NCBI GenBank assembly: GCA_001766825.1
Contig: LYOR01000002.1
Coordinates: 61,810 to 125,809, forward strand
DNA from: Candidatus Syntropharchaeum butanivorans
GTDB lineage: Archaea; Halobacteriota; Syntropharchaeia; Syntropharchaeales; Syntropharchaeaceae
Reading direction: 5' to 3'
Length of the DNA stretch: 64,000 nt
Of the stretch, positions 4,657 through 58,196 are shown one piece after another. The position numbers and the translations under genes are program-made. Numbering within the stretch: the stretch's first letter is position 1; every line of letters begins with the position of its first letter. The notes under the pieces were generated by a model. The model worked only from the letters and a program-made list of their open reading frames with translations. It was not told the DNA's origin and searched no databases.

Positions 4657-5328
4657 ATGCGGGCAAGATTTGAGAGGCGGTTTGGACCTGTACTTGAGGC
4701 TGCAAGAGAGGGGGAGCGCCGGTGTCTCAGGTGCGAGAGGTGGGGTGGAGACCCGGTTCTGATGGTCGTTGATGCGGCACTTGACTCTATCGGGCTCAGC
4801 TACTTCAATATCGTTGTCCCCAGGGTCAGGCGGTTCTATGAGGTGTATGTGAGGGATGGAAGGATCAGATCCTTTGAGGATCTTGCAGGATACAGGCCTG
4901 ATGATAGAGGACTTCTTGAGATACTCAACAACCGGCGTGCATGGGGCACGGCGATTCAGGTTGCAGATACACTCGAGAGGATGCGGAGAGAAAGGGGGCT
5001 TCGATCTGATCTTGATGCACTCTGTAACTGGGCACATAACACGAGCTACCTTGAGTGGAGAAACGACCCTGTAGGGCAGATTAAAGGAGTCGGGCTCATC
5101 ACATTCCAGTACCTCAGGATGCAGGCCGGTGTTGATACCTCGATGCCTGATAAGATCATAAAGCGGGTCGTTGAGCGTGAGTTTGGAGTAAGGGCACCGG
5201 ATGACCTCTCCTTTATCAGGGAGATGGAAGAGCTATCGCGTAGAATCGGATATTCGCAGATCCTGATATGCTGGGCGATATGGCTCAGAGAGTCTGATAT
5301 GGGGAGAGGAGAGTGGGAGATTGTTTAG
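4657..5328 (+). CDS. Helix-hairpin-helix (HhH-GPD-like) protein, possible DNA glycosylase-fold protein
   Basis: QIKGVGLITFQYLRMQAGVDTSMPD resembles the HhH motif plus conserved Asp. Confidence 0.55.
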   Translation: MRARFERRFGPVLEAAREGERRCLRCERWGGDPVLMVVDAALDSIGLSYFNIVVPRVRRFYEVYVRDGRIRSFEDLAGYRPDDRGLLEILNNRRAWGTAIQVADTLERMRRERGLRSDLDALCNWAHNTSYLEWRNDPVGQIKGVGLITFQYLRMQAGVDTSMPDKIIKRVVEREFGVRAPDDLSFIREMEELSRRIGYSQILICWAIWLRESDMGRGEWEIV

Positions 5329-5334
5329 TTTGTA

Positions 5335-5928
5335 TTATGATGGGAGAAAAACACTTTTAATGCCAATTATGATCATTTCGGTCCCGATTGCAGCAAGAAT
5401 TATCCCCATGATCTTTGTGATGTAGACCGATCCTTCCTTCTTTATTATCTCATAGAAGAGATCTGCGTTCACAAGGATTGCCCCCACCCCGAGCATTGCT
5501 ATTAAAATCGCGGCGATAACATGCACCCGCTCAACGAGCGTGGCTGCAGCACTCATGAAGATCATCACCGATGTGATCGTCCCGGGACCTGATAAAAGTG
5601 GTATCGCCATCGGGACAACCGCTATCCCCTCCCATTCCTCGGGTTCAACCTCCGGCCTCGGGATCCCGAGAAGCATCTGTAGCGCGATAATAAGAAGGAG
5701 GATTCCACCTGCAATCCTGAAGGATGAGATCGAGATCCCAAGAAGATCCAGTATCCCCTCCCCGATCAGTCCAAAGACGATCAGTGTTATCGTGGCAACA
5801 AAAACCGCCTTGATTATGATTTTTCTCCTTGTTGCCCTGTCCAACCCCTCTGTGAGCGCGAGAAAAATTGGAAGATTGCCAAACGGGTCGGCAATCACAA
5901 ATACTGCAACGAGTGCGTGGAAAAACAT
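5335..5928 (-). CDS. MarC family membrane protein
   Basis: DPFGNLPIF, FRIAGGILL, VPMAIPLLSGPG. Confidence 0.92.
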   Translation of the reverse strand: MFFHALVAVFVIADPFGNLPIFLALTEGLDRATRRKIIIKAVFVATITLIVFGLIGEGILDLLGISISSFRIAGGILLLIIALQMLLGIPRPEVEPEEWEGIAVVPMAIPLLSGPGTITSVMIFMSAAATLVERVHVIAAILIAMLGVGAILVNADLFYEIIKKEGSVYITKIMGIILAAIGTEMIIIGIKSVFLPS

Positions 5929-49693: not shown

Positions 49694-50067
49694 GAAAGTG
49701 CCCCCTCTGTGACGAGGAGATCTCTGAGGAGGATCTTTTGAAGGTACAGGAGAGCCTGAAAAGCTATCTTGAGGAGGAGATCGCATCCCTTGAGTCGGAG
49801 ATAGATGAGATAAGAGCTAAGACAGATGACTGGCACCTCTCCTACCAGGACTTTCTCAAGATAATTGGAAAGATCATCGAAGAGAGCAGGGAGGAGTTCA
49901 AAAGGCTTGGTCAGGAGAACGAGGAGCTTAAAGCAGAGAACAGGATGCTTGATTCAAGGGTGAAGGAGCTTTCATCAGAGCTTGCGAGACTCAGGGATGA
50001 GCTGAAGCAGATCTGTGCACTGAGGGTGAACCTTGAGAAGAGAGCAAAGGCTTTAAAGAAAGCCTGA
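49690..50067 (+). CDS. Hypothetical CPxC plus coiled-coil protein
   Basis: CPLC at N-terminus, long heptad region, ATGA overlap. Confidence 0.75.
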   Translation: MRKCPLCDEEISEEDLLKVQESLKSYLEEEIASLESEIDEIRAKTDDWHLSYQDFLKIIGKIIEESREEFKRLGQENEELKAENRMLDSRVKELSSELARLRDELKQICALRVNLEKRAKALKKA

Positions 50068-50087
50068 TAAATGGATGATGAGAGAAT

Positions 50088-50375
50088 ATGGCGAAGATTC
50101 GAAGGTTGGTTCTTGACGTGCTGAAGCCGCATCAGCCCAACATTATAGAGTATGCGTATATACTTGGCAGCATCAAGGGGGTCGATGGTGCGAACCTGAG
50201 CCTCTATGAGGTGGACCAGGAGACGGAGAATGTAAAGATCACGCTTGAAGGGAGTGATATCAACTTCAAAGATGTGGAAAAGGCGATTCAGGAGCTGGGA
50301 GGATCGATTCACTCTATCGACCTCGTGGCAACAGGGCAACGGCTGATTGAGGACGTGGGAACACTGATGGACTGA
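50088..50375 (+). CDS. DUF211 family protein
   Basis: RRLVLDVLKPH..P, SIHSID. Confidence 0.88.
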   Translation: MAKIRRLVLDVLKPHQPNIIEYAYILGSIKGVDGANLSLYEVDQETENVKITLEGSDINFKDVEKAIQELGGSIHSIDLVATGQRLIEDVGTLMD

Positions 50376-50387
50376 GGGGGAGCGGCT

Positions 50388-50867
50388 ATTATCAGAGGAA
50401 AGGTGTGGAAATTCGGTGACAACGTGGACACAGATCAGATCATCCCCGCGGAGTATCTTTTGACAGGTAACCCTGTGGAGCTTGCAAAGCACGCCTTCTC
50501 CAAGGTGCGACCCGAGTTTGCGGAGAATGTTAGAAGAGGAGATATCATCGTTGCCGGGTTAAACTTCGGTTCTGGATCCAGCAGGGAACATGCGCCAAGG
50601 GCACTTCTCGGTGCAGGGATATCATGCGTGATCGCAGAGAGCTTCTCCAGGATATTCTTCAGGAACGCGATAAATATCGGCTTACCCCTGGTAGAGTGCA
50701 GGATAAGTGCAAAAGAGGGGGATATCCTTGAGGTGGATCTGGAAAAGGGTCTGATCAGGAATGTGACAGGTGGAGAGTCATTCAGCTTCAAACCATTACC
50801 TGGCTTCTTGCGGGAGATGCTTGATGCAGGCGGGCTCATAGGATGGTTAAGGTCAAGACCTCAATAG
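50388..50867 (+). CDS. leuD: 3-isopropylmalate dehydratase small subunit (start ATT 50388 or GTG 50403)
   Basis: VWKFGDNVDTD, NFGSGSSREHA, FFRNAINIG. Confidence 0.92.
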   Translation: MIRGKVWKFGDNVDTDQIIPAEYLLTGNPVELAKHAFSKVRPEFAENVRRGDIIVAGLNFGSGSSREHAPRALLGAGISCVIAESFSRIFFRNAINIGLPLVECRISAKEGDILEVDLEKGLIRNVTGGESFSFKPLPGFLREMLDAGGLIGWLRSRPQ

Positions 50868-51937
50868 AGGAGATTGAGCAGTACAGACCCGGAGAAACGG
50901 TTGAAGAAACCGCACACAGGGTGGAGCTTGATGTAAGTGAAATTATCAAGCTTGCATCGAATGAAAACGTCCTCGGACCATCTCCAGCTGCTGTTCAGGC
51001 GATTATAAGTGGCGTGGATAGGGTCAACACTTACCCGACCGTGGATGCCATCCATCTCAGATCCGAGATACTATCGCACCTCGGCGAGGGTTTTCTCATC
51101 GAGAACATAGTCTGCGGTAACGGTTCAGATGGGGTTATTGAGGCGCTTGTACATCTCTTTATTGAGGATGGAGACGAAGCGATCATCCCGATACCCACAT
51201 TCTCATTCTACGAGCTGGTTGTGAGGATGCACGGTGGAAGACCGGTTTTCCTGACGCGAGATTCCGAATTCGGGTTTTCATCCGATGAGATCATCTCAAA
51301 GGTGACAGATCGAACGAAGCTCGTCTTCATCGCGTCGCCGAACAATCCAACCGGGAACTCGATCGATGAGCAGACCCTCAGAGATCTCCTTGAGTCTCTG
51401 GATGCGATGATAATCCTTGACGAGGCGTACATCGAGTTCTCCTCAAAGCCATCCCTCAACAGGCTCGTGCTTGAGTATGATAACCTCGCTGTGATACACA
51501 CATTCTCAAAGGCTTATGGGCTTGCAGGTATGAGGGTGGGGTATGGGGTGATCCCGGGATGGCTCTTTCCCTATTACACCCGTGCAACACCGCCATTTGC
51601 GGTAAACACCCTTGCTGAAGCGGCTGCAATCGCGGCTCTACGGGATGAGAAGCACCTTGAGAGGACGAAAAAGATGGTGGAGGATGGAAAAAAGTTTCTC
51701 ACAACAGAAATTCCTTTCAAGGTCTATCCAGGTGATGCAAACTTCGTACTCGTTGATACGTCCCCGCTCACATCCCGGGAGGTCACTGAGGCGCTCAAAC
51801 CTATGGGTATAATCGTGCGCGATTGTGCCGGGTTCAGGGGCATGGGGGACTCGTTTATAAGGATCACTATCGGAAGAAGAGAGGATAACAGGAGGGTTGT
51901 TGAAGCCTTGAGAAAGATAAAAAATCGAGTGATTTAA
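50843..51937 (+). CDS. hisC: Histidinol-phosphate aminotransferase
   Basis: LASNEN, PNNPTG, DEAY, TFSKAYGLAGMRVG. Confidence 0.93.
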   Translation: MVKVKTSIEEIEQYRPGETVEETAHRVELDVSEIIKLASNENVLGPSPAAVQAIISGVDRVNTYPTVDAIHLRSEILSHLGEGFLIENIVCGNGSDGVIEALVHLFIEDGDEAIIPIPTFSFYELVVRMHGGRPVFLTRDSEFGFSSDEIISKVTDRTKLVFIASPNNPTGNSIDEQTLRDLLESLDAMIILDEAYIEFSSKPSLNRLVLEYDNLAVIHTFSKAYGLAGMRVGYGVIPGWLFPYYTRATPPFAVNTLAEAAAIAALRDEKHLERTKKMVEDGKKFLTTEIPFKVYPGDANFVLVDTSPLTSREVTEALKPMGIIVRDCAGFRGMGDSFIRITIGRREDNRRVVEALRKIKNRVI

Positions 51938-52022
51938 CCGGTGTTTCAGATCGCTTCTCGCTTTTCCGGGTCTGAGGGTGAGGTTCAGCCACCTTTAAAT
52001 ATCCTGTGGTTGAGTGGGGAGT

Positions 52023-53225
52023 ATGCCGATCATCATCAACGCGGACCTTCACATCCACTCACACTATGCTGCTGCATCATCCAGAGAGATGACGATTTCA
52101 AGACTCGCAAGAGAGGGACCGAAGAAGGGGATAAACCTCATCGGGAGTGGGGATTGCCTCCATCCAGGATGGCTCGCGGAGATGAGGGCTGAAAGAAGGA
52201 TATTTGATCGGCTTTTCATACCAACCTGCGAGGTTGAGGACTCAAACCGCGTCCATCATCTCATCATCCTGCCCTCCCTAACGAAAGCAGAGGAGCTTCG
52301 TGAGGCTTTTGCCCCCTACTCTGTAGATATCGATACAAACGGGAGGCCCAGGGTCAACCTCTCCGGGTGCGAGATCGCTGAGGCTGCAAGAGACGTGGAG
52401 GCGCTTATAGGTCCTGCACATGCTTTCACACCCTGGACATCGCTGTATGCCTGTTATGACTCGTTGAGTGAGTGTTACGAGGATATGGTGGATTATATCG
52501 CCTTTATCGAGCTTGGGCTGAGTGCTGATACATCCTACGCGGATATGATCAGCAGACACCACGATCTCACATTTCTCACAAACTCAGACGCGCACTCACC
52601 CTGGCCCATCAGGCTTGCACGGGAGTTTAACCGGTTTGAGATGGAAGATACGACATTTGACGAGCTTAAGATGGCGATACTGAGAAAGAAAGGAAGAAGA
52701 CCGATTTTAAATGTTGGACTACCCCCAGAGGAGGGTAAATATAACAGAACTGCATGTACACGATGCTACAGGCAGTTCGACCTTGAAGAAGCCGTCAAGA
52801 TCAAATGGAGGTGTGAATGCGGGGGTCTCATCAAAAAAGGTGTCTTTGACAGGGTCCGGGAGCTTGCAGACCTGGAAAAGCCGTATCATCCCCCCCATCG
52901 CCCACCCTACCTCCACCTGATCCCGCTCTCAGAGATCATATCACTCGCGATTGGACATGGTGTGAACACAAAGGCCGTCAGAGATCTCTGGGAGGAGCTT
53001 GTCCTGCACTTTGGTTCAGAGGTGGCGGTACTTCTTGACGCAGAACCAGATGAGCTTGAGGGGTTCGATGAGAGGATCGTTTATGCGATCTCTGCCTTCA
53101 GGGATGGGCGAATCATCGTTGAGCCAGGCGGTGGTGGGAAATATGGCACCATCAAGCTTCCAGAGAGGGATGAAAGAAAGCCTCCAAAAGGGCAGCGATC
53201 GCTTTTTGATGCATACGGTAAGTAA
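52023..53225 (+). CDS. PHP-family endonuclease Q-like protein (TIGR00375)
   Basis: DLHIHS, PAHAFTP, NSDAHS, GKY..TAC..C..C.CGG. Confidence 0.88.
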   Translation: MPIIINADLHIHSHYAAASSREMTISRLAREGPKKGINLIGSGDCLHPGWLAEMRAERRIFDRLFIPTCEVEDSNRVHHLIILPSLTKAEELREAFAPYSVDIDTNGRPRVNLSGCEIAEAARDVEALIGPAHAFTPWTSLYACYDSLSECYEDMVDYIAFIELGLSADTSYADMISRHHDLTFLTNSDAHSPWPIRLAREFNRFEMEDTTFDELKMAILRKKGRRPILNVGLPPEEGKYNRTACTRCYRQFDLEEAVKIKWRCECGGLIKKGVFDRVRELADLEKPYHPPHRPPYLHLIPLSEIISLAIGHGVNTKAVRDLWEELVLHFGSEVAVLLDAEPDELEGFDERIVYAISAFRDGRIIVEPGGGGKYGTIKLPERDERKPPKGQRSLFDAYGK

Positions 53226-53320
53226 GGGGTAAAATTATCCCATGTCAGCCTCCCCTCTCTAACAGGTTGCAAGTCATGGGAGGAAAAAAAGGCGGGGTGG
53301 TATGGAATTTTGCAGGATAT

Positions 53321-54189
53321 TGTGTAGTCCTGAAATTTTTGACCTTATAACCCTACCTCTCATTCCCAACCACCTCATCAAAAAGCTTGAATGCAACACC
53401 TAACCTTGCTTCTACAGGCAACCTGCTCCAGAATGAGGCGCATCCGCCTCATAAGGGGGATTGCATCCCCTCTACCCCGCGTCCGATCTTCGATCGGACT
53501 CGTCCTGCCGAAGGCAGGACATTTTGGCAACGCCTTTTATAAAAAGGCGTAAGCTCTCAAAATCGTCTCTGTACCTGCTATAACAGTCAAAGAGCTTCTC
53601 TATCTTGCCATTCGTCTGGGGATGCTTTATCCTGGATGTTATCAGCTTTATGCCCAGGGATTCAAGGTGACGTCTGAGATTAACTCTTTCATTGGCATGA
53701 TGCCCCAGTAATCCTCAACAAGCTTATCTACCAAAGCTATGCTGTTTTCAGTGTTGGCATTCTTGAATTCTCCTGCTGCAAGGATCTTCCTTGAAGCATC
53801 ATCCAGAATAGCACAGAACTTTATCCCATCCTTCTCAAACCAGTCAATATGCCCTGCTGAGATCGAATGCTCCCTCTCGTATCGTATGTATGGCTTTCTC
53901 CTTCTCTTCTTCCTTGGTTCTTCCTTTGCCAATCCTTCTTCAAGCAAGTATTTGTGAATGCGATTGTGAGGGATGTGGATGCCGTAAACCTGTTCTATCA
54001 CCTTTTCAAGCCTTCTCGCTCCCAGCCTGTACCTGGCTTTGGCCTCCCTGATTATTTCCTTCTCCTTTTCGCTTAGCTCTTTCCCTTCTGCTTGTGCCTC
54101 ACGATGTACCTTATCTTCTTCTCTGTCAGTCTGCCGTAACCCATCAATTGGGTGAGGGTATTTAAAGTCAAATTTTTTGGGACTATACA
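53321..54189 (-). mobile_element. IS481-family remnant 2, deleted and interrupted by a hairpin cassette
   Basis: YEREHS..HIDW..ILDDASR and HPQTNGKIEK fragments; imperfect IRs TGTGTAGTCCTGAAA / TGTATAGTCCCAAAA. Confidence 0.85.
53433..53550. repeat. Multi-hairpin cassette 1 (five short perfect palindromes)
   Basis: ATGAGGCG-catc-CGCCTCAT; GGGGAT-tgc-ATCCCC; GTCCGATC-ttc-GATCGGAC; GTCCTGCC-gaa-GGCAGGAC; ACGCCTTTT-ata-AAAAGGCGT. Confidence 0.9.
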
Positions 54190-54259
54190 CCTCGCTAAAA
54201 AATGTTATTGTTGGGAAGTACCCGCTTTAATAACAAACATTTAAATACAATAGATTTAA

Positions 54260-54635
54260 GAGAACTTTGAAAAACCCACCCACTCCCAGAGCCCATCAGA
54301 TTAACAGGCAAATAAAAAATCCTCCTGTATGAGGCGCATCCGCCTCATCCACCCAATGTCCTACCTGCGGTAGGACTACGCTTTTCGAGCGAGAACCACA
54401 GCCGAAGGCTGGATATTTCCGATCTTTGATCAGAATTGCCCTATCGAAGATGGACTTTTGCGTAAAGGCTTTCCAAAGCCTGCGGTGAAGATGATATTCA
54501 TCTACGCATCAGGAATGAAAAAACAGGGGTAATGGATGAGGACTGAGGAGGGGATCCCGTCTCAGTGGCACTTATTATTTATGAGAGGGTCTGGTTCAGG
54601 TTTTGACCGGTGGGTGGGGGTAAATCAAAGTTCTC
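54260..54635. mobile_element. MITE-like element, copy B (full length, with internal hairpin cassette)
   Basis: 11-bp perfect TIR GAGAACTTTGA (54260-54270 / 54625-54635); homology with copies A and C; no ORF. Confidence 0.7.
54329..54464. repeat. Multi-hairpin cassette 2
   Basis: Same 20-mer ATGAGGCGCATCCGCCTCAT; GTCCTACC-tgc-GGTAGGAC; CAGCC-gaa-GGCTG; absent from copy C of the host repeat. Confidence 0.85.
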
Positions 54636-54649
54636 ATTAGTGATTCAAG

Positions 54650-56004
54650 ATGGAAGCGAAGAGGTATCCTGTTTCTTCTATGGATACTCATACTCTTTAC
54701 CTTCGTTTCGGTAGCAACAGCAGGAGATCCAACAGGAGCAAATACACTCTCAGAGAATCCAGGGGCACCTGTAGATTATGTCTGGATATTGATCTGCGGA
54801 TTTCTGGTAATGTTCATGCAACCGGGCTTTGCGATGCTTGAAGCTGGATTCTCAAGGGCAAAGAACGTGACAAACGTCCTGATGAAGAACCTCGTGGACT
54901 ACGCAGTAGGCTCGCTCGCATTCTTTGCGGTGGGTTACGCGATAATGATGGGGACTCCAGCGTACTTCTTGTCAGGTGATGCGTATGATGTTGGCACCAT
55001 CCTGAACTGGTACTTATGTGATCTACAGTGCCGTCATCTGTGCGATCATATATCCGATCTACGGCCACTGGCTCTGGGGAGGTGGGTGGTTGAGTTCAAC
55101 CGACTTCATGATCAAACTTGGTGGCGGATACGGTGCGCTTGACTTTGCGGGATCGGGTGTTGTCCATGCGATAGGCAGATATGTTCCACTTGCAGCATGC
55201 TTGCTGTTTGGTCCAAGAATTGGTAAGTACGACAATCAAGGAAGACCCATACCAATCCCAGGGCACAGTATCTCTCTTGCAGTCCTTGGAGCATTCATCC
55301 TATGGTTTGGGTGATTTGGCTTCAACCCGGGATCAACGCTTTCAGCCCATGAGCTTAGAATATCAGTGATAGCAGCGAATACGAACTTAGCTGCTGCGGC
55401 ATCTGCCATGACAGCAATGTTCATAACCTGGTCAAAGTTCGGCAAGCCTGATGTGGTCATGACAGTAAACGGTGCGATTGCAGGGCTTGTTGCGATAACA
55501 GCACCCTGTGCCTGGGTTGCACCATGGGCTGCGGTGGTGATAGGGGTCGTTGCAGGCTTTATCGTCTGCTACGGATACTGGTTCCTCGAGCAACATGGTG
55601 TGGATGATGTTGTAGGCGCAGTACCTGTTCATGGATTCAATGGGGCATGGGGGCTTCTCGCACTGGGCATATTTGCAGATGGGACTTATGGTAATTATAC
55701 AACCGTTGAGCCACTTGTTAGAGGATTACTCTACGGAAACACAGGATTCTTTGCATGCCAGGTCATAAGCGCAGTTGTAAACTTCTTCTGGGCATTTGGG
55801 ACAGGTTTCTTCCTGCTCTACGTGCTGAAGAAGACGATTGGAATCAGGGTATCACCGGAGGAGGAGTTCTTCATGGGCCTTGATATCAGTGACCACAGCA
55901 TCGTTACGTACCCAGACTTCGTCTACACAGAACCGGCAAGACCGGTCAGTGTAATACGAGTGAGTGAAAGAGAGAGATGGAGGGGGCAGGATGAAGAAGA
56001 TTGA
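54650..56004 (+). pseudogene. amtB: Ammonium transporter pseudogene
   Basis: FMQPGFAMLEAG, DFAGSGVVH, GAVPVHG; frameshift just after start, deletion near 55015, TGA at 55312 replacing Trp in WFGWFGFN. Confidence 0.92.
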
Positions 56005-56242
56005 GGCGATAATAAGACCTGAAAAGCTCGATGATGTAAAAAACGCTTTAGAGAGTGCGAACTTTGTGAGCATGAACCTCACAGAGATTCGGGGAAGAGG
56101 CAGACAGAAGGGTGTGAAGCTTGCATGGCGCGGTACAGAGTATCTGATGGAGATGGTTCCAAAGATTAAGATAGACATGGTTGTGAGGAATGAGGATGCA
56201 GAAAAGGTCGTTGAGATCATCGCAGAGAGTTTGAACGCGTGA
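55991..56242 (+). pseudogene. glnK: P-II nitrogen regulator, C-terminally truncated
   Basis: MKKIEAIIRPEKL, GRGRQKG; lacks TG..GDGKIF. Confidence 0.85.
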
Positions 56243-56270
56243 AACTGGAGAGAAGGCAATATAGAACCTT

Positions 56271-58196
56271 TTACTTTTTCAAAATATCCTTAACACTCAC
56301 CCTGTGAAGGATGAGCTGAGCCCTTCCCTCCCCCTCCTCCAGGATCTCAAAGTCTTCGAGTATGATCTCACCCCTGAAATTTGGTCCGCCAATAACGAGG
56401 CTTTCAAGCTCCCCGCCCTCACCCACGATGCTTATACCATATCTCTCCTTCAATCTCATGAGTTCATCAAGATCTGAATGGGTTATCTCACGCCCGAGCC
56501 ATGAGCTATCAAGCCCCTCTGCTGCAACAGCGGTGAACACGATCCTAAACCCGGCATTAAGCATCTCTCGAATCACCCGCTCCTCATCCAAGTGCCACAG
56601 TGGTGAAAAGACCTTCAGACCAATCCTATCTGCGATTAACTCTATCCGCTCCCGTTGATAGTTCGAGTACAGTGCGCCGGTCACAACACCCTCAATCTTG
56701 TACTCATCCCTCGCCCGCAAGAGCACTCTCTCAAGATCGAATAGCTCATACTCCGCCTCTCCAGCAGTCTCCTCGATAACCGGTGGTATCCCCATAAGCT
56801 CGGCCTGCAGCGGGACCAGATCGATCGTGGGAGTATGAAACATGTATGACGCGGGGTTTTTACTCTTGAGCGTTATCAGACATCTTATCTCGTAGTTCTG
56901 CATCTGCATGAGGTAAAGTGCATATGTACTATCCTTTCCGGAGCTGTAGAGTACCCCAAGTCTCAAGTTAGGCCTTTTCAGAATTTCCCTGAGGTACTGG
57001 TTCTTCGAACGAAATCCCTTCGATCTTGCAAGCCTTGCAATTGCCCGATCAAAACCGCTTCCATACTGTGCTGCGGTCTTTTTTCTGTATGCAAAGGCTT
57101 CATTGACCCCGAGATCGAGTGCAACCTCTCTAAGGATCAACTTATTAACATCGCCATCTATTTTGAGCTCTGATGGGATCTTAAGCGCATACTCGATGAT
57201 CTTTGGATCGAGAAAAGGCATGATCAGTTCAACTCCCACATTTGCCGCTATAACCTCATCTCTATAGCTATTTCGCTCATAATATGAGAGCATATCAGAA
57301 AAACAATCTTTGTTGACATCCTTAGACATTTTATGCCTATTATATCCTCCAAAAAGCTCATCAGATCCATTTCCAACGAATATATGATCAATTCCATCCC
57401 TTTTCGCCTCTGACACTGCGATTAAAACCGGTAGTCCGACCCCGACCTTCATCGCACTCGAATCCTCGATAAGCTCAACAACCTCGCGAACATGGCGCTG
57501 AATATCATCCATCCCCACCTCTGTCACCTTAAGGTTTAAACCGTGCTCCTCTGCCGCCCTCATCGCAAACTCAATATCCTTCGAGGCTTCAACCCCTGCC
57601 GAGTAACAGGTGAAACGTTCAGCCCCAACTATCTGCTTTATGCAGCATGCAAGAAGGGTTGAATCGAGACCCCCTGAGAGTAGAAGCCCAAAATGCCCAT
57701 CTGGAATTCTCGATTCTACAGCCTCGATTATAAGCTCTTTAAGCTCCCTTCTGATCTCTTCCCTGCTTTTTTCATGCTCATCTCCCAGGCTGAAGAAGCC
57801 CTTATAGGAACGAGAGATCTCATCTCTCATGGTGTGATATGATATGACCTCCCTCGGGTTAAGCTCGAATGTATCCCTGAACCCAAGCCTGAGAAGTACC
57901 TTCCGTTCAGATGCAAAGGCAAAACCGTTAGACAGACTGTAGAAGATCGGTTTTATCCCGATACGATCGCGCTCGATTCTGATCTCATCACCTTCCCAGG
58001 TGGCAGATGCATATCCACAAATACCACGATCCTCCGCGAGTATAAGATCGCCCTTCACGCTGATACCACCGAGTGCAGACCTCTCTCGCACATAAACGCT
58101 GGATGGATCCACCCCCCTTTTTTCCATCATTTTAATACCTTTTAATACAAGATCCTCCGCAGAATCGTGGTTAAAGACTCCTATGATCCCTGACAT
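56271..58196 (-). CDS. Fusion of asparagine-synthetase-like domain and diphthine-ammonia ligase (Dph6) domain
   Basis: RDRIGIKP, LSGGLDS, GSDELFGGY, then SSGKDS, SYMFH, GEGGELES. Confidence 0.88.
   Translation of the reverse strand: MSGIIGVFNHDSAEDLVLKGIKMMEKRGVDPSSVYVRERSALGGISVKGDLILAEDRGICGYASATWEGDEIRIERDRIGIKPIFYSLSNGFAFASERKVLLRLGFRDTFELNPREVISYHTMRDEISRSYKGFFSLGDEHEKSREEIRRELKELIIEAVESRIPDGHFGLLLSGGLDSTLLACCIKQIVGAERFTCYSAGVEASKDIEFAMRAAEEHGLNLKVTEVGMDDIQRHVREVVELIEDSSAMKVGVGLPVLIAVSEAKRDGIDHIFVGNGSDELFGGYNRHKMSKDVNKDCFSDMLSYYERNSYRDEVIAANVGVELIMPFLDPKIIEYALKIPSELKIDGDVNKLILREVALDLGVNEAFAYRKKTAAQYGSGFDRAIARLARSKGFRSKNQYLREILKRPNLRLGVLYSSGKDSTYALYLMQMQNYEIRCLITLKSKNPASYMFHTPTIDLVPLQAELMGIPPVIEETAGEAEYELFDLERVLLRARDEYKIEGVVTGALYSNYQRERIELIADRIGLKVFSPLWHLDEERVIREMLNAGFRIVFTAVAAEGLDSSWLGREITHSDLDELMRLKERYGISIVGEGGELESLVIGGPNFRGEIILEDFEILEEGEGRAQLILHRVSVKDILKK

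What the first reader, a model, noticed from the sequence alone, without database searches (positions are those of the whole stretch)
53433..54464. Modular mini-hairpin cassettes inserted into other mobile elements
Seen: two 120-135 bp non-coding cassettes start with the identical palindrome ATGAGGCGCATCCGCCTCAT. Each continues as a string of 5-9 bp stems, many with GAA or GCA triloops on one strand, and the hairpin modules differ in identity and order between copies. One replaces part of an IS481 transposase; the other sits inside a MITE whose sister copy lacks it. Known: GNA-triloop mini-hairpins are very stable in ssDNA, and REP/IS200-type HUH enzymes act on hairpins. Inference: a non-autonomous ssDNA-mobilised element that grows or shuffles by hairpin units, or a structured RNA family.
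Basis: partly seen in the sequence, partly recalled or inferred. Interest (0 to 1): 0.72.

Follow-up and report, generated by a model that had tools for sequence, protein, structure and literature searches.

The report
Hairpin-string core of archaeal insertion-sequence relics
The two cassettes are copies of one ~340-bp repeat made of a fixed series of small DNA hairpins; about 27 versions sit inside crippled insertion sequences of this archaeon, and they seem to spread with those carriers and by recombination, not through a hairpin-cutting enzyme of their own.

Summary
ATGAGGCGCATCCGCCTCAT lies at 53433 and 54329, and each copy heads a string of perfect local hairpins (DNA fold z = -8.6 and -5.3).

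The family is larger than two copies. The 1.46-Mb, 79%-complete genome has 27 exact copies of the 20-mer in about 28 arrays. The arrays follow one ordered grammar. The master form is about 338 bp, and shorter arrays are deletions or duplications between like modules.

Every array touches insertion-sequence DNA on at least one side. Three families carry them: IS5 (DUF772), IS481 (rve) and IS5/IS427-like (DUF4096).
- Cassette 1 replaces about 86 bp of the IS481 transposase C-terminus, judged against an intact copy in a Methanoperedenaceae genome.
- Cassette 2 is the core of a 376-bp IS5-derived MITE.

A nearly identical strain has such a MITE inserted at a site that is empty in this window. Other shared insertion sites hold different arrays.

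No Y1/RAYT transposase, conserved target or Rfam match was found. My best reading is passenger DNA that moves with its carriers and is reshuffled by recombination at hairpin bases.

A conserved GTCC/GGAC stem foot, compensatory stem changes and hairpin-exact junctions keep a structure-specific mobilisation possible.

Earlier notes of this scan flagged the same hairpins elsewhere in this genome.

The parts
53321..54189 (-). IS481-family element ('IS-B'), defective. The terminal inverted repeats are TGTGTAGTCCTGAAATTTTTGAC and GTCAAATTTTTTGGGACTATACA. It carries cassette 1 near the 3' end of its transposase gene.
   Evidence: An intact 323-aa homologue in the Methanoperedenaceae record (L090 1300-2271) has rve and HTH domains. 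The ends and flanks align at 85-99%. The HPQTNGK motif was read.
53648..54190 (-). Truncated transposase ORF of 180 aa (HTH part and start of the catalytic core). It is cut short by a 63-bp internal deletion at about 53672.
   Evidence: Compared with the C2:144092-145043 copy.
53433..53551 (+). Cassette 1: modules A - B - C - D - M. It replaces about 86 bp of the transposase C-terminus (ILDDFVYWYNNVRFHESLDTKHHLQTPEDAFWG in the intact copy).
   Evidence: No residual similarity to the replaced coding sequence (z about 0).
53433..53452 (+). Module A: ATGAGGCG-CATC-CGCCTCAT. It is always the array edge nearest the carrier's terminal repeat.
53481..53520 (+). Modules C and D, two GTCC-N4-loop-N4-GGAC hairpins.
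53530..53550 (+). Module M: a right-end hairpin with T and A runs (ACGCCTTTT-ATA-AAAAGGCGT).
54260..54635 (+). IS5-derived MITE of 376 bp. The inverted repeats are GAGAACTTTGAAAAACCCACCCAC and GTGGGTGGGGGTAAATCAAAGTTCTC, and TTA is found on both flanks.
   Evidence: The 1210-bp parent-like copy at C2:246123-247332 has a DUF772 N-terminus. An intact relative has DUF772 plus DDE_Tnp_1.
54329..54481 (+). Cassette 2: modules A - X(CCACCCAAT) - E - F - G - N - O. It fills the internal deletion of the MITE. IS5 sequence resumes at GCGGTGAAGATGATATT (54482).
54329..54348 (+). Module A, second copy.
54358..54376 (+). Module E: GTCCTACC-TGC-GGTAGGAC.
54466..54481 (+). Module O: right-end hairpin AGGCTTT-CC-AAAGCCT.
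5325..5328 (+). Empty target site (TTAG). In a 99.5%-identical metagenome strain it holds an array-bearing IS5 MITE.
   Evidence: L063 compared with window 5270-5420.

Best explanation
The cassettes are two deletion variants of a single hairpin-rich mosaic sequence.

Master form, about 338 bp:
- Unit 1 = A, B, C, D, J, Bt.
- Unit 2 = A, X, E/E2, D, F, G, then either H-I-K or N-O.

This sequence is the passenger core of non-autonomous derivatives of three DDE-type insertion-sequence families. It has no transposition machinery of its own.

Shown:
- Copy number grows because the carriers transpose as whole units, with inverted repeats and a TTA/TTAG target, presumably using transposase supplied in trans.
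- The content of an element at a fixed locus changes between near-identical strains.
- Left and right carrier halves occur in almost all combinations.

Inferred:
- Arrays diversify by unequal recombination or replication slippage between the repeated modules (A with A, GTCC..GGAC with GTCC..GGAC, J with K).
- Arrays are homogenised and passed between carrier families by ectopic gene conversion, or by microhomology-mediated template switching that starts and ends at hairpin bases.
- This would explain why junctions with carrier DNA lie exactly at the foot of A on one side and at a T-run hairpin (J, K, M or O) on the other, and why host sequence is replaced, not merely interrupted.
- Perfect stems with compensatory variants are kept either by intra-hairpin template correction or because only well-folded copies recombine.
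For: - There are 27 exact copies of A in about 28 arrays, all following one ordered grammar.
- Every left-flank type occurs with both unit 1 and unit 2 after A, as expected from deletions between the two A copies.
- A 94-bp unit is triplicated at C3:218877.
- Every array adjoins IS5, IS481 or IS427-like DNA on at least one side. None is free-standing.
- The observed left/right carrier combinations include chimeras: IS481-left with IS5-right, and T3-left with IS481-right.
- L063 shows a whole MITE with array inserted at TTAG where window 5328 is empty.
- L061 versus C3:88650, and L064 versus C3:76304, show the same insertion site with different internal arrays at 97-99% flank identity.
- Replacement with short shared edges is seen in two places: about 86 bp in IS481, and 33 codons in IS5 with GATG/CAGG microhomology.
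- The same junctions and grammar occur in sister genomes G001 and G002 with species-specific stems.
- No Y1 transposase was found.
Against: - At least seven different left junctions all fall exactly at the first base of A, and right junctions fall at the end of a J, K, M or O hairpin. Ordinary illegitimate recombination does not predict that precision.
- The GTCC/GGAC foot is invariant, while four inner pairs co-vary. That pattern is typical of protein-recognised hairpins.
- Arrays are better conserved than their surroundings: 95-98% between genomes whose housekeeping genes are 66-75% identical.
- In the Methanoperedenaceae genome, different hairpin pairs appear as clean 44-52-bp inserts with 5-7-bp direct repeats inside IS ORFs. 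Small hairpin units can therefore enter DNA on their own.
- The genome is only 79% complete, so an enzyme gene may be missing.
Confidence: 0.55

Rival explanations
1. REP/BIME- or PATE-like element. The array would be a hairpin-ended unit, with A as the left end and a T-run hairpin J, K, M or O as the right end. It would be cut and pasted as single-stranded DNA by a Y1 (HUH) transposase supplied in trans. Insertion sequences would merely be safe landing sites.
For: - Junctions lie exactly at hairpin feet, with distinct left-end and right-end hairpin types and no inverted repeats or target duplication of the array itself.
- The GTCC/GGAC foot is conserved and the inner stem varies in a compensatory way.
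- GNA triloops are common.
- The Methanoperedenaceae genome holds 4-5 Y1_Tnp genes. One is flanked by hairpins, including the same CTTGATTAC/GTTGCTTAC pair that interrupts IS ORFs there.
- Five of the left flanks share a loose YCWGR motif.
Against: - No Y1_Tnp was found in the own genome or on 15 array-bearing metagenome contigs.
- The other left flanks (ACATA, CACGT, GCGTA, CCTTT) do not fit one target.
- No array lies in unique intergenic DNA.
- Arrays replace 86-99 bp and are not simply inserted.
- Modules lack the GTAG/CGTC tag and are not in alternating orientation.
- The hairpins bordering the Y1 gene in the other genome are not repeated there.
Confidence: 0.17
2. Selected functional module. 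The hairpin string would be kept because it does something for the carrier or the host. It might act as a structured RNA or antisense regulator of the transposase, as a bidirectional transcription stop (the T-run hairpins J, M and O), or as a binding platform for a protein.
For: - Grammar and stems are conserved across three species and one distant lineage, with compensatory changes.
- J, M and O combine a GC clamp with T4-5/A4-5 runs.
- Array-bearing MITE copies outnumber array-free ones.
Against: - No Rfam family matches.
- Orientation relative to the transposase gene differs between carriers: sense in IS5, antisense in IS481 and IS427-like, and inverted in C3:76185.
- The few imperfect pairs are not consistently G-U on one strand.
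- Content varies widely between copies, which is hard to square with one function.
- Conservation can be explained by horizontal spread of the carriers.
Confidence: 0.12
3. Arrays are pre-existing chromosomal palindromes that attract insertion sequences, as REPs do in bacteria. On this view the IS elements inserted into arrays, not the reverse.
For: REP sequences are documented IS targets (PMC1525189, seen). Arrays are always next to IS DNA.
Against: - Arrays lie between the two inverted repeats of the carriers.
- They travel with the carrier to a new TTAG site.
- They sit where intact relatives have coding sequence.
Confidence: 0.03
4. The hairpins arose in place, by stepwise conversion of the original transposase coding sequence into perfect palindromes through quasi-palindrome template switching.
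For: The replaced and replacing segments are of similar length (86-99 bp versus 101-119 bp). There are short shared edges and small native quasi-palindromes at the junctions.
Against: A global alignment of the intact 85-bp segment with the arrays scores no better than shuffles (z = -0.4 and 0.2). The same modules occur in unrelated carriers.
Confidence: 0.03

Closest known systems
BIMEs / REP clusters of enterobacteria and pseudomonads (with RAYT Y1 transposases)
   Same: They are mosaics of short GC-rich hairpins joined by short linker motifs, present in many copies and in several combinations. The hairpin foot is conserved and the stems vary in a compensatory way.
   Different: - REPs lie between host genes, whereas these arrays lie only inside IS derivatives.
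- REPs alternate in orientation, carry a GTAG/CGTC tag and come with a RAYT gene. None of these was found here.
- The host here is an archaeon.
BOX elements of Streptococcus pneumoniae (boxA-boxB(n)-boxC) and other modular MITE-like repeats (PMC3049150)
   Same: They have an ordered modular grammar with a variable number of internal hairpin modules and a fixed first module, are non-coding and non-autonomous, and are thought to be moved in trans.
   Different: - There is no sequence relationship.
- BOX elements are themselves the mobile unit, with their own ends.
- Here the modules are the interior of elements whose ends belong to IS5 or IS481 families, and the same interior is shared by three carrier families.
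MITEs with an internal tandem-repeat or minisatellite core (for example Porphyromonas gingivalis, PMC4596501; clam DTC84, PMC3879986)
   Same: The inverted repeats derive from a DDE transposon. The core is variable and repetitive, expands and contracts, and rides with the MITE.
   Different: The core here is a string of different perfect hairpins, not one tandem unit, and it occurs in carriers of unrelated transposase families.
PATEs (palindrome-associated transposable elements, IS200/IS605 derivatives; Haloquadratum, PMC3119063)
   Same: They are archaeal, non-autonomous, and defined by terminal hairpins instead of inverted repeats.
   Different: PATEs keep the ends and the fixed target of a resident IS200/IS605 element. 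No such element, target or TnpA was found in this genome.
Filler DNA and abortive gap repair at internal deletion junctions of DNA transposons (maize Ac/Ds, Mu; from general knowledge, not checked in a paper here)
   Same: Foreign sequence sits exactly at the junction of an internal deletion that turns an autonomous element into a non-autonomous one, and the joints show microhomology.
   Different: Filler DNA is usually unique to each event. Here the same structured sequence recurs in three families and several species.

Membership tests
REP / BIME (RAYT-associated) | Short imperfect palindromes carrying a conserved GTAG or CGTC tetranucleotide at one end | tested here: not met
   The modules start with GTCC, ATGAGG or GGGGAT. 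No GTAG or CGTC tag is present.
REP / BIME (RAYT-associated) | Extragenic location between host genes, often as inverted pairs or in alternating orientation | tested here: not met
   All of the roughly 28 arrays adjoin IS-derived DNA. The modules in an array share one orientation.
REP / BIME (RAYT-associated) | A Y1 (RAYT) transposase gene in the genome, typically flanked by the repeats | tested here: not met
   PF01797 gives no match in the own genome, although the control genomes do respond. tblastn with four Y1 proteins finds nothing. Caveat: the genome is 79% complete.
IS200/IS605-derived PATE | Distinct subterminal left-end and right-end hairpins, with no inverted repeats and no target duplication | tested here: inconclusive
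   Arrays begin with A and end with a J, K, M or O hairpin and have no inverted repeats or duplication of their own. However, they are never seen as simple insertions.
IS200/IS605-derived PATE | Insertion 3' of a fixed 4-5-nt target | tested here: not met
   The left flanks are CCAGA, TCAGG, CCTGG/T/C, ACATA, CACGT, GCGTA and CCTTT.
MITE of a DDE insertion sequence (applies to the carriers) | Terminal inverted repeats shared with an autonomous IS, plus an internal deletion of the transposase | tested here: met
   The IS5-type repeats and ends match the 1210-bp copy, and relatives have DUF772 plus DDE_Tnp_1. The IS481-type ends match an intact 323-aa copy.
MITE of a DDE insertion sequence (applies to the carriers) | Target-site duplication and presence/absence polymorphism | tested here: met
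   TTA flanks 54260-54635. An insertion at TTAG in L063 corresponds to an empty site at window 5328.
MITE (applies to the hairpin array itself) | Own inverted repeats and target duplication | tested here: not met
   The array ends A and J/K/M/O are unrelated, and no duplication flanks the arrays.
Known structured RNA family (Rfam) | Match to a curated covariance model | tested here: not met
   No match up to E = 1 over window 50000-58000.

The most novel reading that the evidence does not exclude
The hairpin string may be a parasite of insertion sequences. On this reading it is a structure-defined element with the A hairpin as its left end, a T-run hairpin as its right end, and internal units sharing a GTCC..GGAC foot. 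It would enter transposase genes of unrelated IS families by a hairpin-guided single-strand or copy-choice mechanism. It would replace about 90-100 bp, disable the transposase, and then use the host element's ends for dispersal. The enzyme or repair pathway that recognises the conserved hairpin foot would be new, or at least not a known Y1 transposase. The clean 44-52-bp hairpin-pair inserts with 5-7-bp direct repeats in the Methanoperedenaceae genome would be the minimal form of the same process.
Probability: 0.2. Interest if true: 0.8.

Novelty: new variant of a known kind. Interest (0 to 1): 0.5.

Why it matters
- Modular hairpin mosaics such as REP/BIME and BOX are classic but still poorly understood bacterial repeats. 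An archaeal counterpart has not, to my knowledge, been described.
- This one has an unusual lifestyle. It lives only inside relics of three unrelated insertion-sequence families and sits exactly where their transposases were disabled.
- It is shared between alkane-oxidising archaea whose core genes are only 66-75% identical.
- It marks sites where closely related strains differ in structure, so it bears on genome plasticity and on assembly breaks in these uncultured organisms. Arrays lie at three contig ends.
- If the hairpin-exact junctions reflect a dedicated mechanism, it would be a new way for very small DNA to move. If not, it is a clear natural example of palindrome-stimulated recombination shaping MITE evolution.

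Tried and rejected
- Y1/RAYT search. PF01797 in the own genome gave nothing, as did tblastn with four Y1 proteins against the genome and the metagenome contigs. TnpB-type PF07282 gave no significant match in any of the four genomes searched, the own one included; the only hit (G002, 20.6 bits) lies below the family cut-off.
- Hairpins bordering the Y1 gene in the other genome are not repeated there, so they give no PATE link.
- Rfam: no match.
- Origin in place from coding sequence: alignment is no better than shuffles. My first impression that both replacements were exactly 99 bp was wrong. They are about 86 bp in IS481 and about 99 bp in IS5.
- IS-into-palindrome targeting: rejected because arrays lie between the carriers' inverted repeats.
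- Empty-site comparison at genus level failed, because synteny around the window locus is not kept.
- An ungapped comparison of array identity with flank identity was too noisy to use.
- Plasmid and phage collections: no similar DNA.
- The literature searches found no description of these repeats in Syntrophoarchaeum. Ethanoperedens was not among the search terms, so that literature was not checked.

Full report
**Observation**

The palindrome ATGAGGCGCATCCGCCTCAT occurs at window 53433 and 54329, and none is expected by chance. Each copy is followed by a run of independent perfect hairpins. Folded as single-stranded DNA the two cassettes give -39.9 and -29.8 kcal/mol. Shuffles give about -16, so z = -8.6 and -5.3, and the complementary strands fold equally well. 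Rfam has no match in 50-58 kb.

**Size of the family**

The window is C2:61810-125809 of a 1.46-Mb assembly in 16 contigs, 79% complete. That assembly holds 27 exact copies of the 20-mer. A census of perfect hairpins with stems of at least 8 bp gives 159, against about 83 in shuffles. The excess comes from a few stems: ATGAGGCG 27 times, GTCCGATC 15, GTCCTGCC 13 and GTCCTACC 9.

I named 17 modules and tokenised the genome, which gave 28 chains. They are not free permutations. All follow one order:
- Unit 1: A, aa, B, (C or E), D, attttgcc, J, Bt.
- Then 'ta'.
- Unit 2: A, xCACCCAAT, (E, E2 or C), (D or E), F, G, then either H-I-(J or K) or N-O.
- In one carrier family the string ends in M.

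The two longest arrays (338 bp, C1:269935 and C2:42159) contain the full series. Shorter arrays can be derived from it by deletions whose ends lie in like modules. One array has a 94-bp unit three times (C3:218877, at a contig end). Each type of left flank occurs with both unit 1 and unit 2 after A, as expected if the two A copies recombine.

The window's cassette 1 is A-B-C-D-M. Cassette 2 is A-X-E-F-G-N-O.

**Where the arrays sit**

Cassette 2 lies in a 376-bp element (54260-54635) with 24-bp inverted repeats and TTA on both flanks.
- This element is an internal-deletion derivative of an IS5-type element.
- The longest copy of that element is C2:246123-247332, 1210 bp, with a DUF772 N-terminus.
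- An intact relative has DUF772 plus DDE_Tnp_1.
- Array-free sister copies exist.

Cassette 1 lies in an IS481-type element (53321-54189).
- An intact 323-aa copy with rve and HTH domains is present in the named record LR991653.1 (Ca. Methanoperedenaceae, GoM-Arc1_E37).
- Alignment shows that all copies in the window's genome have M plus array in place of about 86 bp. Those bases encode residues about 257-289 of the integrase core.
- The replacing DNA has no residual similarity to the replaced DNA.

A third carrier has a 38-bp end, GAACTCATTTCAAAACCCTCAGC..., and a DUF4096/DDE_Tnp_1 transposase (IS5 family, IS427-like). There the array lies between the end and the 3' end of the gene.

In the 1210-bp IS5 copy an A-X-E-D-J array replaces 33 codons between WRFR and DATF. 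The same array sits at the same place in the Methanoperedenaceae genome.

Every array touches IS-derived DNA on at least one side. In three or four cases A abuts unique DNA directly (C1:264252, C3:76304, C9:26611), but an IS part lies on the other side. Left and right carrier halves occur in nearly all combinations, including chimeras of different families.

**Dynamics**

Fifteen metagenome contigs carry the 20-mer, and several are 98.5-99.5% identical to this genome.
- L063 has an array-bearing IS5 MITE, starting with the IS5 inverted repeat, inserted at TTAG. Window 5328 is empty at that site. The carrier therefore moves as a unit.
- L061 and L064 share exact insertion sites, and even diagnostic substitutions in the inverted repeat, with C3:88650 and C3:76304. 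Their internal arrays and inner carrier parts are quite different. Content is therefore exchanged in place.
- Arrays lie at three contig ends, as expected of recombining repeats.

**Distribution**

Within 79 genomes of the class, similar DNA is found only in the genus. G002 matches at up to 98% over 133 bp. Among 61 relatives of the Methanoperedenaceae genome, only that genome matches convincingly; one other relative (G115) has a single borderline 35-bp hit at E = 8.4e-6. Plasmid and phage collections have nothing.

Sister genomes G001 and G002 show the same grammar at the same junctions: IS5 position 77, IS5 position about 250, the IS427-like end and the IS481 site. Their stems are species-specific, for example GTCCAACC..GGTTGGAC, and A has the loop AAAGC.

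Across ten variants of the GTCC-N4-loop-N4-GGAC hairpin, 97.5% of cells pair. Four of eight pairs show changes on both sides, and the outer GTC..GAC is invariant.

A housekeeping gene is only 66-76% identical between these genomes. The IS481 and IS5 elements are 85-99% identical. The carriers have therefore been exchanged between lineages.

The kinship pattern fits a lineage other than Methanoperedenaceae: a small family beside a large sister family in the same class, with the Methanoperedenaceae record not among the relatives. I did not verify the name.

**Test of the HUH idea**

- No Y1_Tnp is detectable in the genome or on the metagenome contigs.
- The bases 5' of A fall into loose groups (YCWGR; CRTA), not one target.
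- Arrays replace sequence and are not simply inserted.
- The modules lack GTAG/CGTC tags.
- The Methanoperedenaceae genome does have 4-5 mostly broken Y1 genes. One is flanked by hairpins, but those outer hairpins are unique.
- That genome has its own AT-rich hairpin pairs at about 15 sites, all inside IS5, IS630 and other IS remnants.
  - In the IS5 copy, two pairs are clean 45- and 52-bp indels relative to the copy in the window's genome.
  - In IS630, a 44-nt insert is flanked by a 7-bp direct repeat, ATCTTGA. Part of its first stem is built from the target. Removing it restores the reading frame.
  - Variable-length repeats and target-derived stems point to copy-choice or template switching, not to a transposase.

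**Conclusion**

What is shown:
- One ordered, hairpin-rich mosaic.
- It is confined to derivatives of three DDE insertion-sequence families.
- It is multiplied by carrier transposition and reshuffled in place.

What is inferred:
- Recombination, slippage and microhomology-mediated template switching at hairpin bases generate the variants and pass the array between carriers.
- The supporting microhomologies are ACGATG between the J|GATGCTACC and J|GATGAAACGGG junctions, CAGG/GATG at the IS5 open-reading-frame site, and CTCCWG shared by the IS5-left and IS481 junctions.

What remains unexplained:
- The exactness of the junctions at hairpin feet.
- The invariant GTCC/GGAC foot.
- The high conservation of the arrays.

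These three points keep a structure-specific mobilisation, with or without a Y1 enzyme, alive at roughly one chance in five.

Noticed in passing
window 53321-54189 and C2:246123-247332, compared with L090 and L033 (record LR991653.1): The IS481-type and IS5-type elements are 85-99% identical in nucleotides between this genome and a Methanoperedenaceae (GoM-Arc1_E37) genome. A housekeeping gene (window 52014-53225) is only 66% identical. This points to recent exchange of insertion sequences between distant alkane-oxidising archaea.
   Followed up: partly
L033 about 1240-1370; E37 genome positions 741721, 1049944 and 1143394-1143499 (loci L066, L084): The Methanoperedenaceae genome has its own AT-rich hairpin pairs that interrupt IS5 and IS630 transposase ORFs. 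The 44-nt IS630 insert is flanked by the direct repeat ATCTTGA, and removing it restores ...RDMSRILKSSGMKYAK.... A 52-nt IS5 insert is flanked by AACAT. It could be a template-switch insertion. More speculatively, the matching codons on both sides would allow a translational bypass.
   Followed up: partly
G000 C3:100220-100239 and C9:26611-26630: The A hairpin occurs with its 4-nt loop inverted (GATG instead of CATC) while the neighbouring modules keep their orientation. This flip/flop state suggests the hairpin or cruciform is extruded and processed in vivo.
   Followed up: no
window 54650-56004: The ammonium-transporter gene just downstream of the MITE is split over at least three reading frames (ORFs 54789-55142, 55018-55314 and 55366-56004). 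It is followed by an intact PII (GlnK-like) gene at 55964-56242. This is either a pseudogene or assembly errors.
   Followed up: no
G000 C3:218877-219218, C2:1-352 and C8:664-876: Arrays lie at or near three contig ends, and one holds a 94-bp unit three times. The arrays probably break the assembly, so their true number is likely higher than 28.
   Followed up: no
L045 (G001 C93:806-2718): A sister genome has a long-type Y1 (RAYT-like, HFHLLV motif) transposase fragment next to an IS110-type transposase on a short contig. No hairpin repeats were seen around it, and it may be contamination.
   Followed up: partly
It is either withheld or a scaffold gap.
   Followed up: no
Junctions between adjacent GTCC..GGAC hairpins, for example window 53496-53505: Neighbouring hairpins create the duplex palindrome GGAC-NN-GTCC between them, which could be a binding site for a dimeric protein in double-stranded form.
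   Followed up: no
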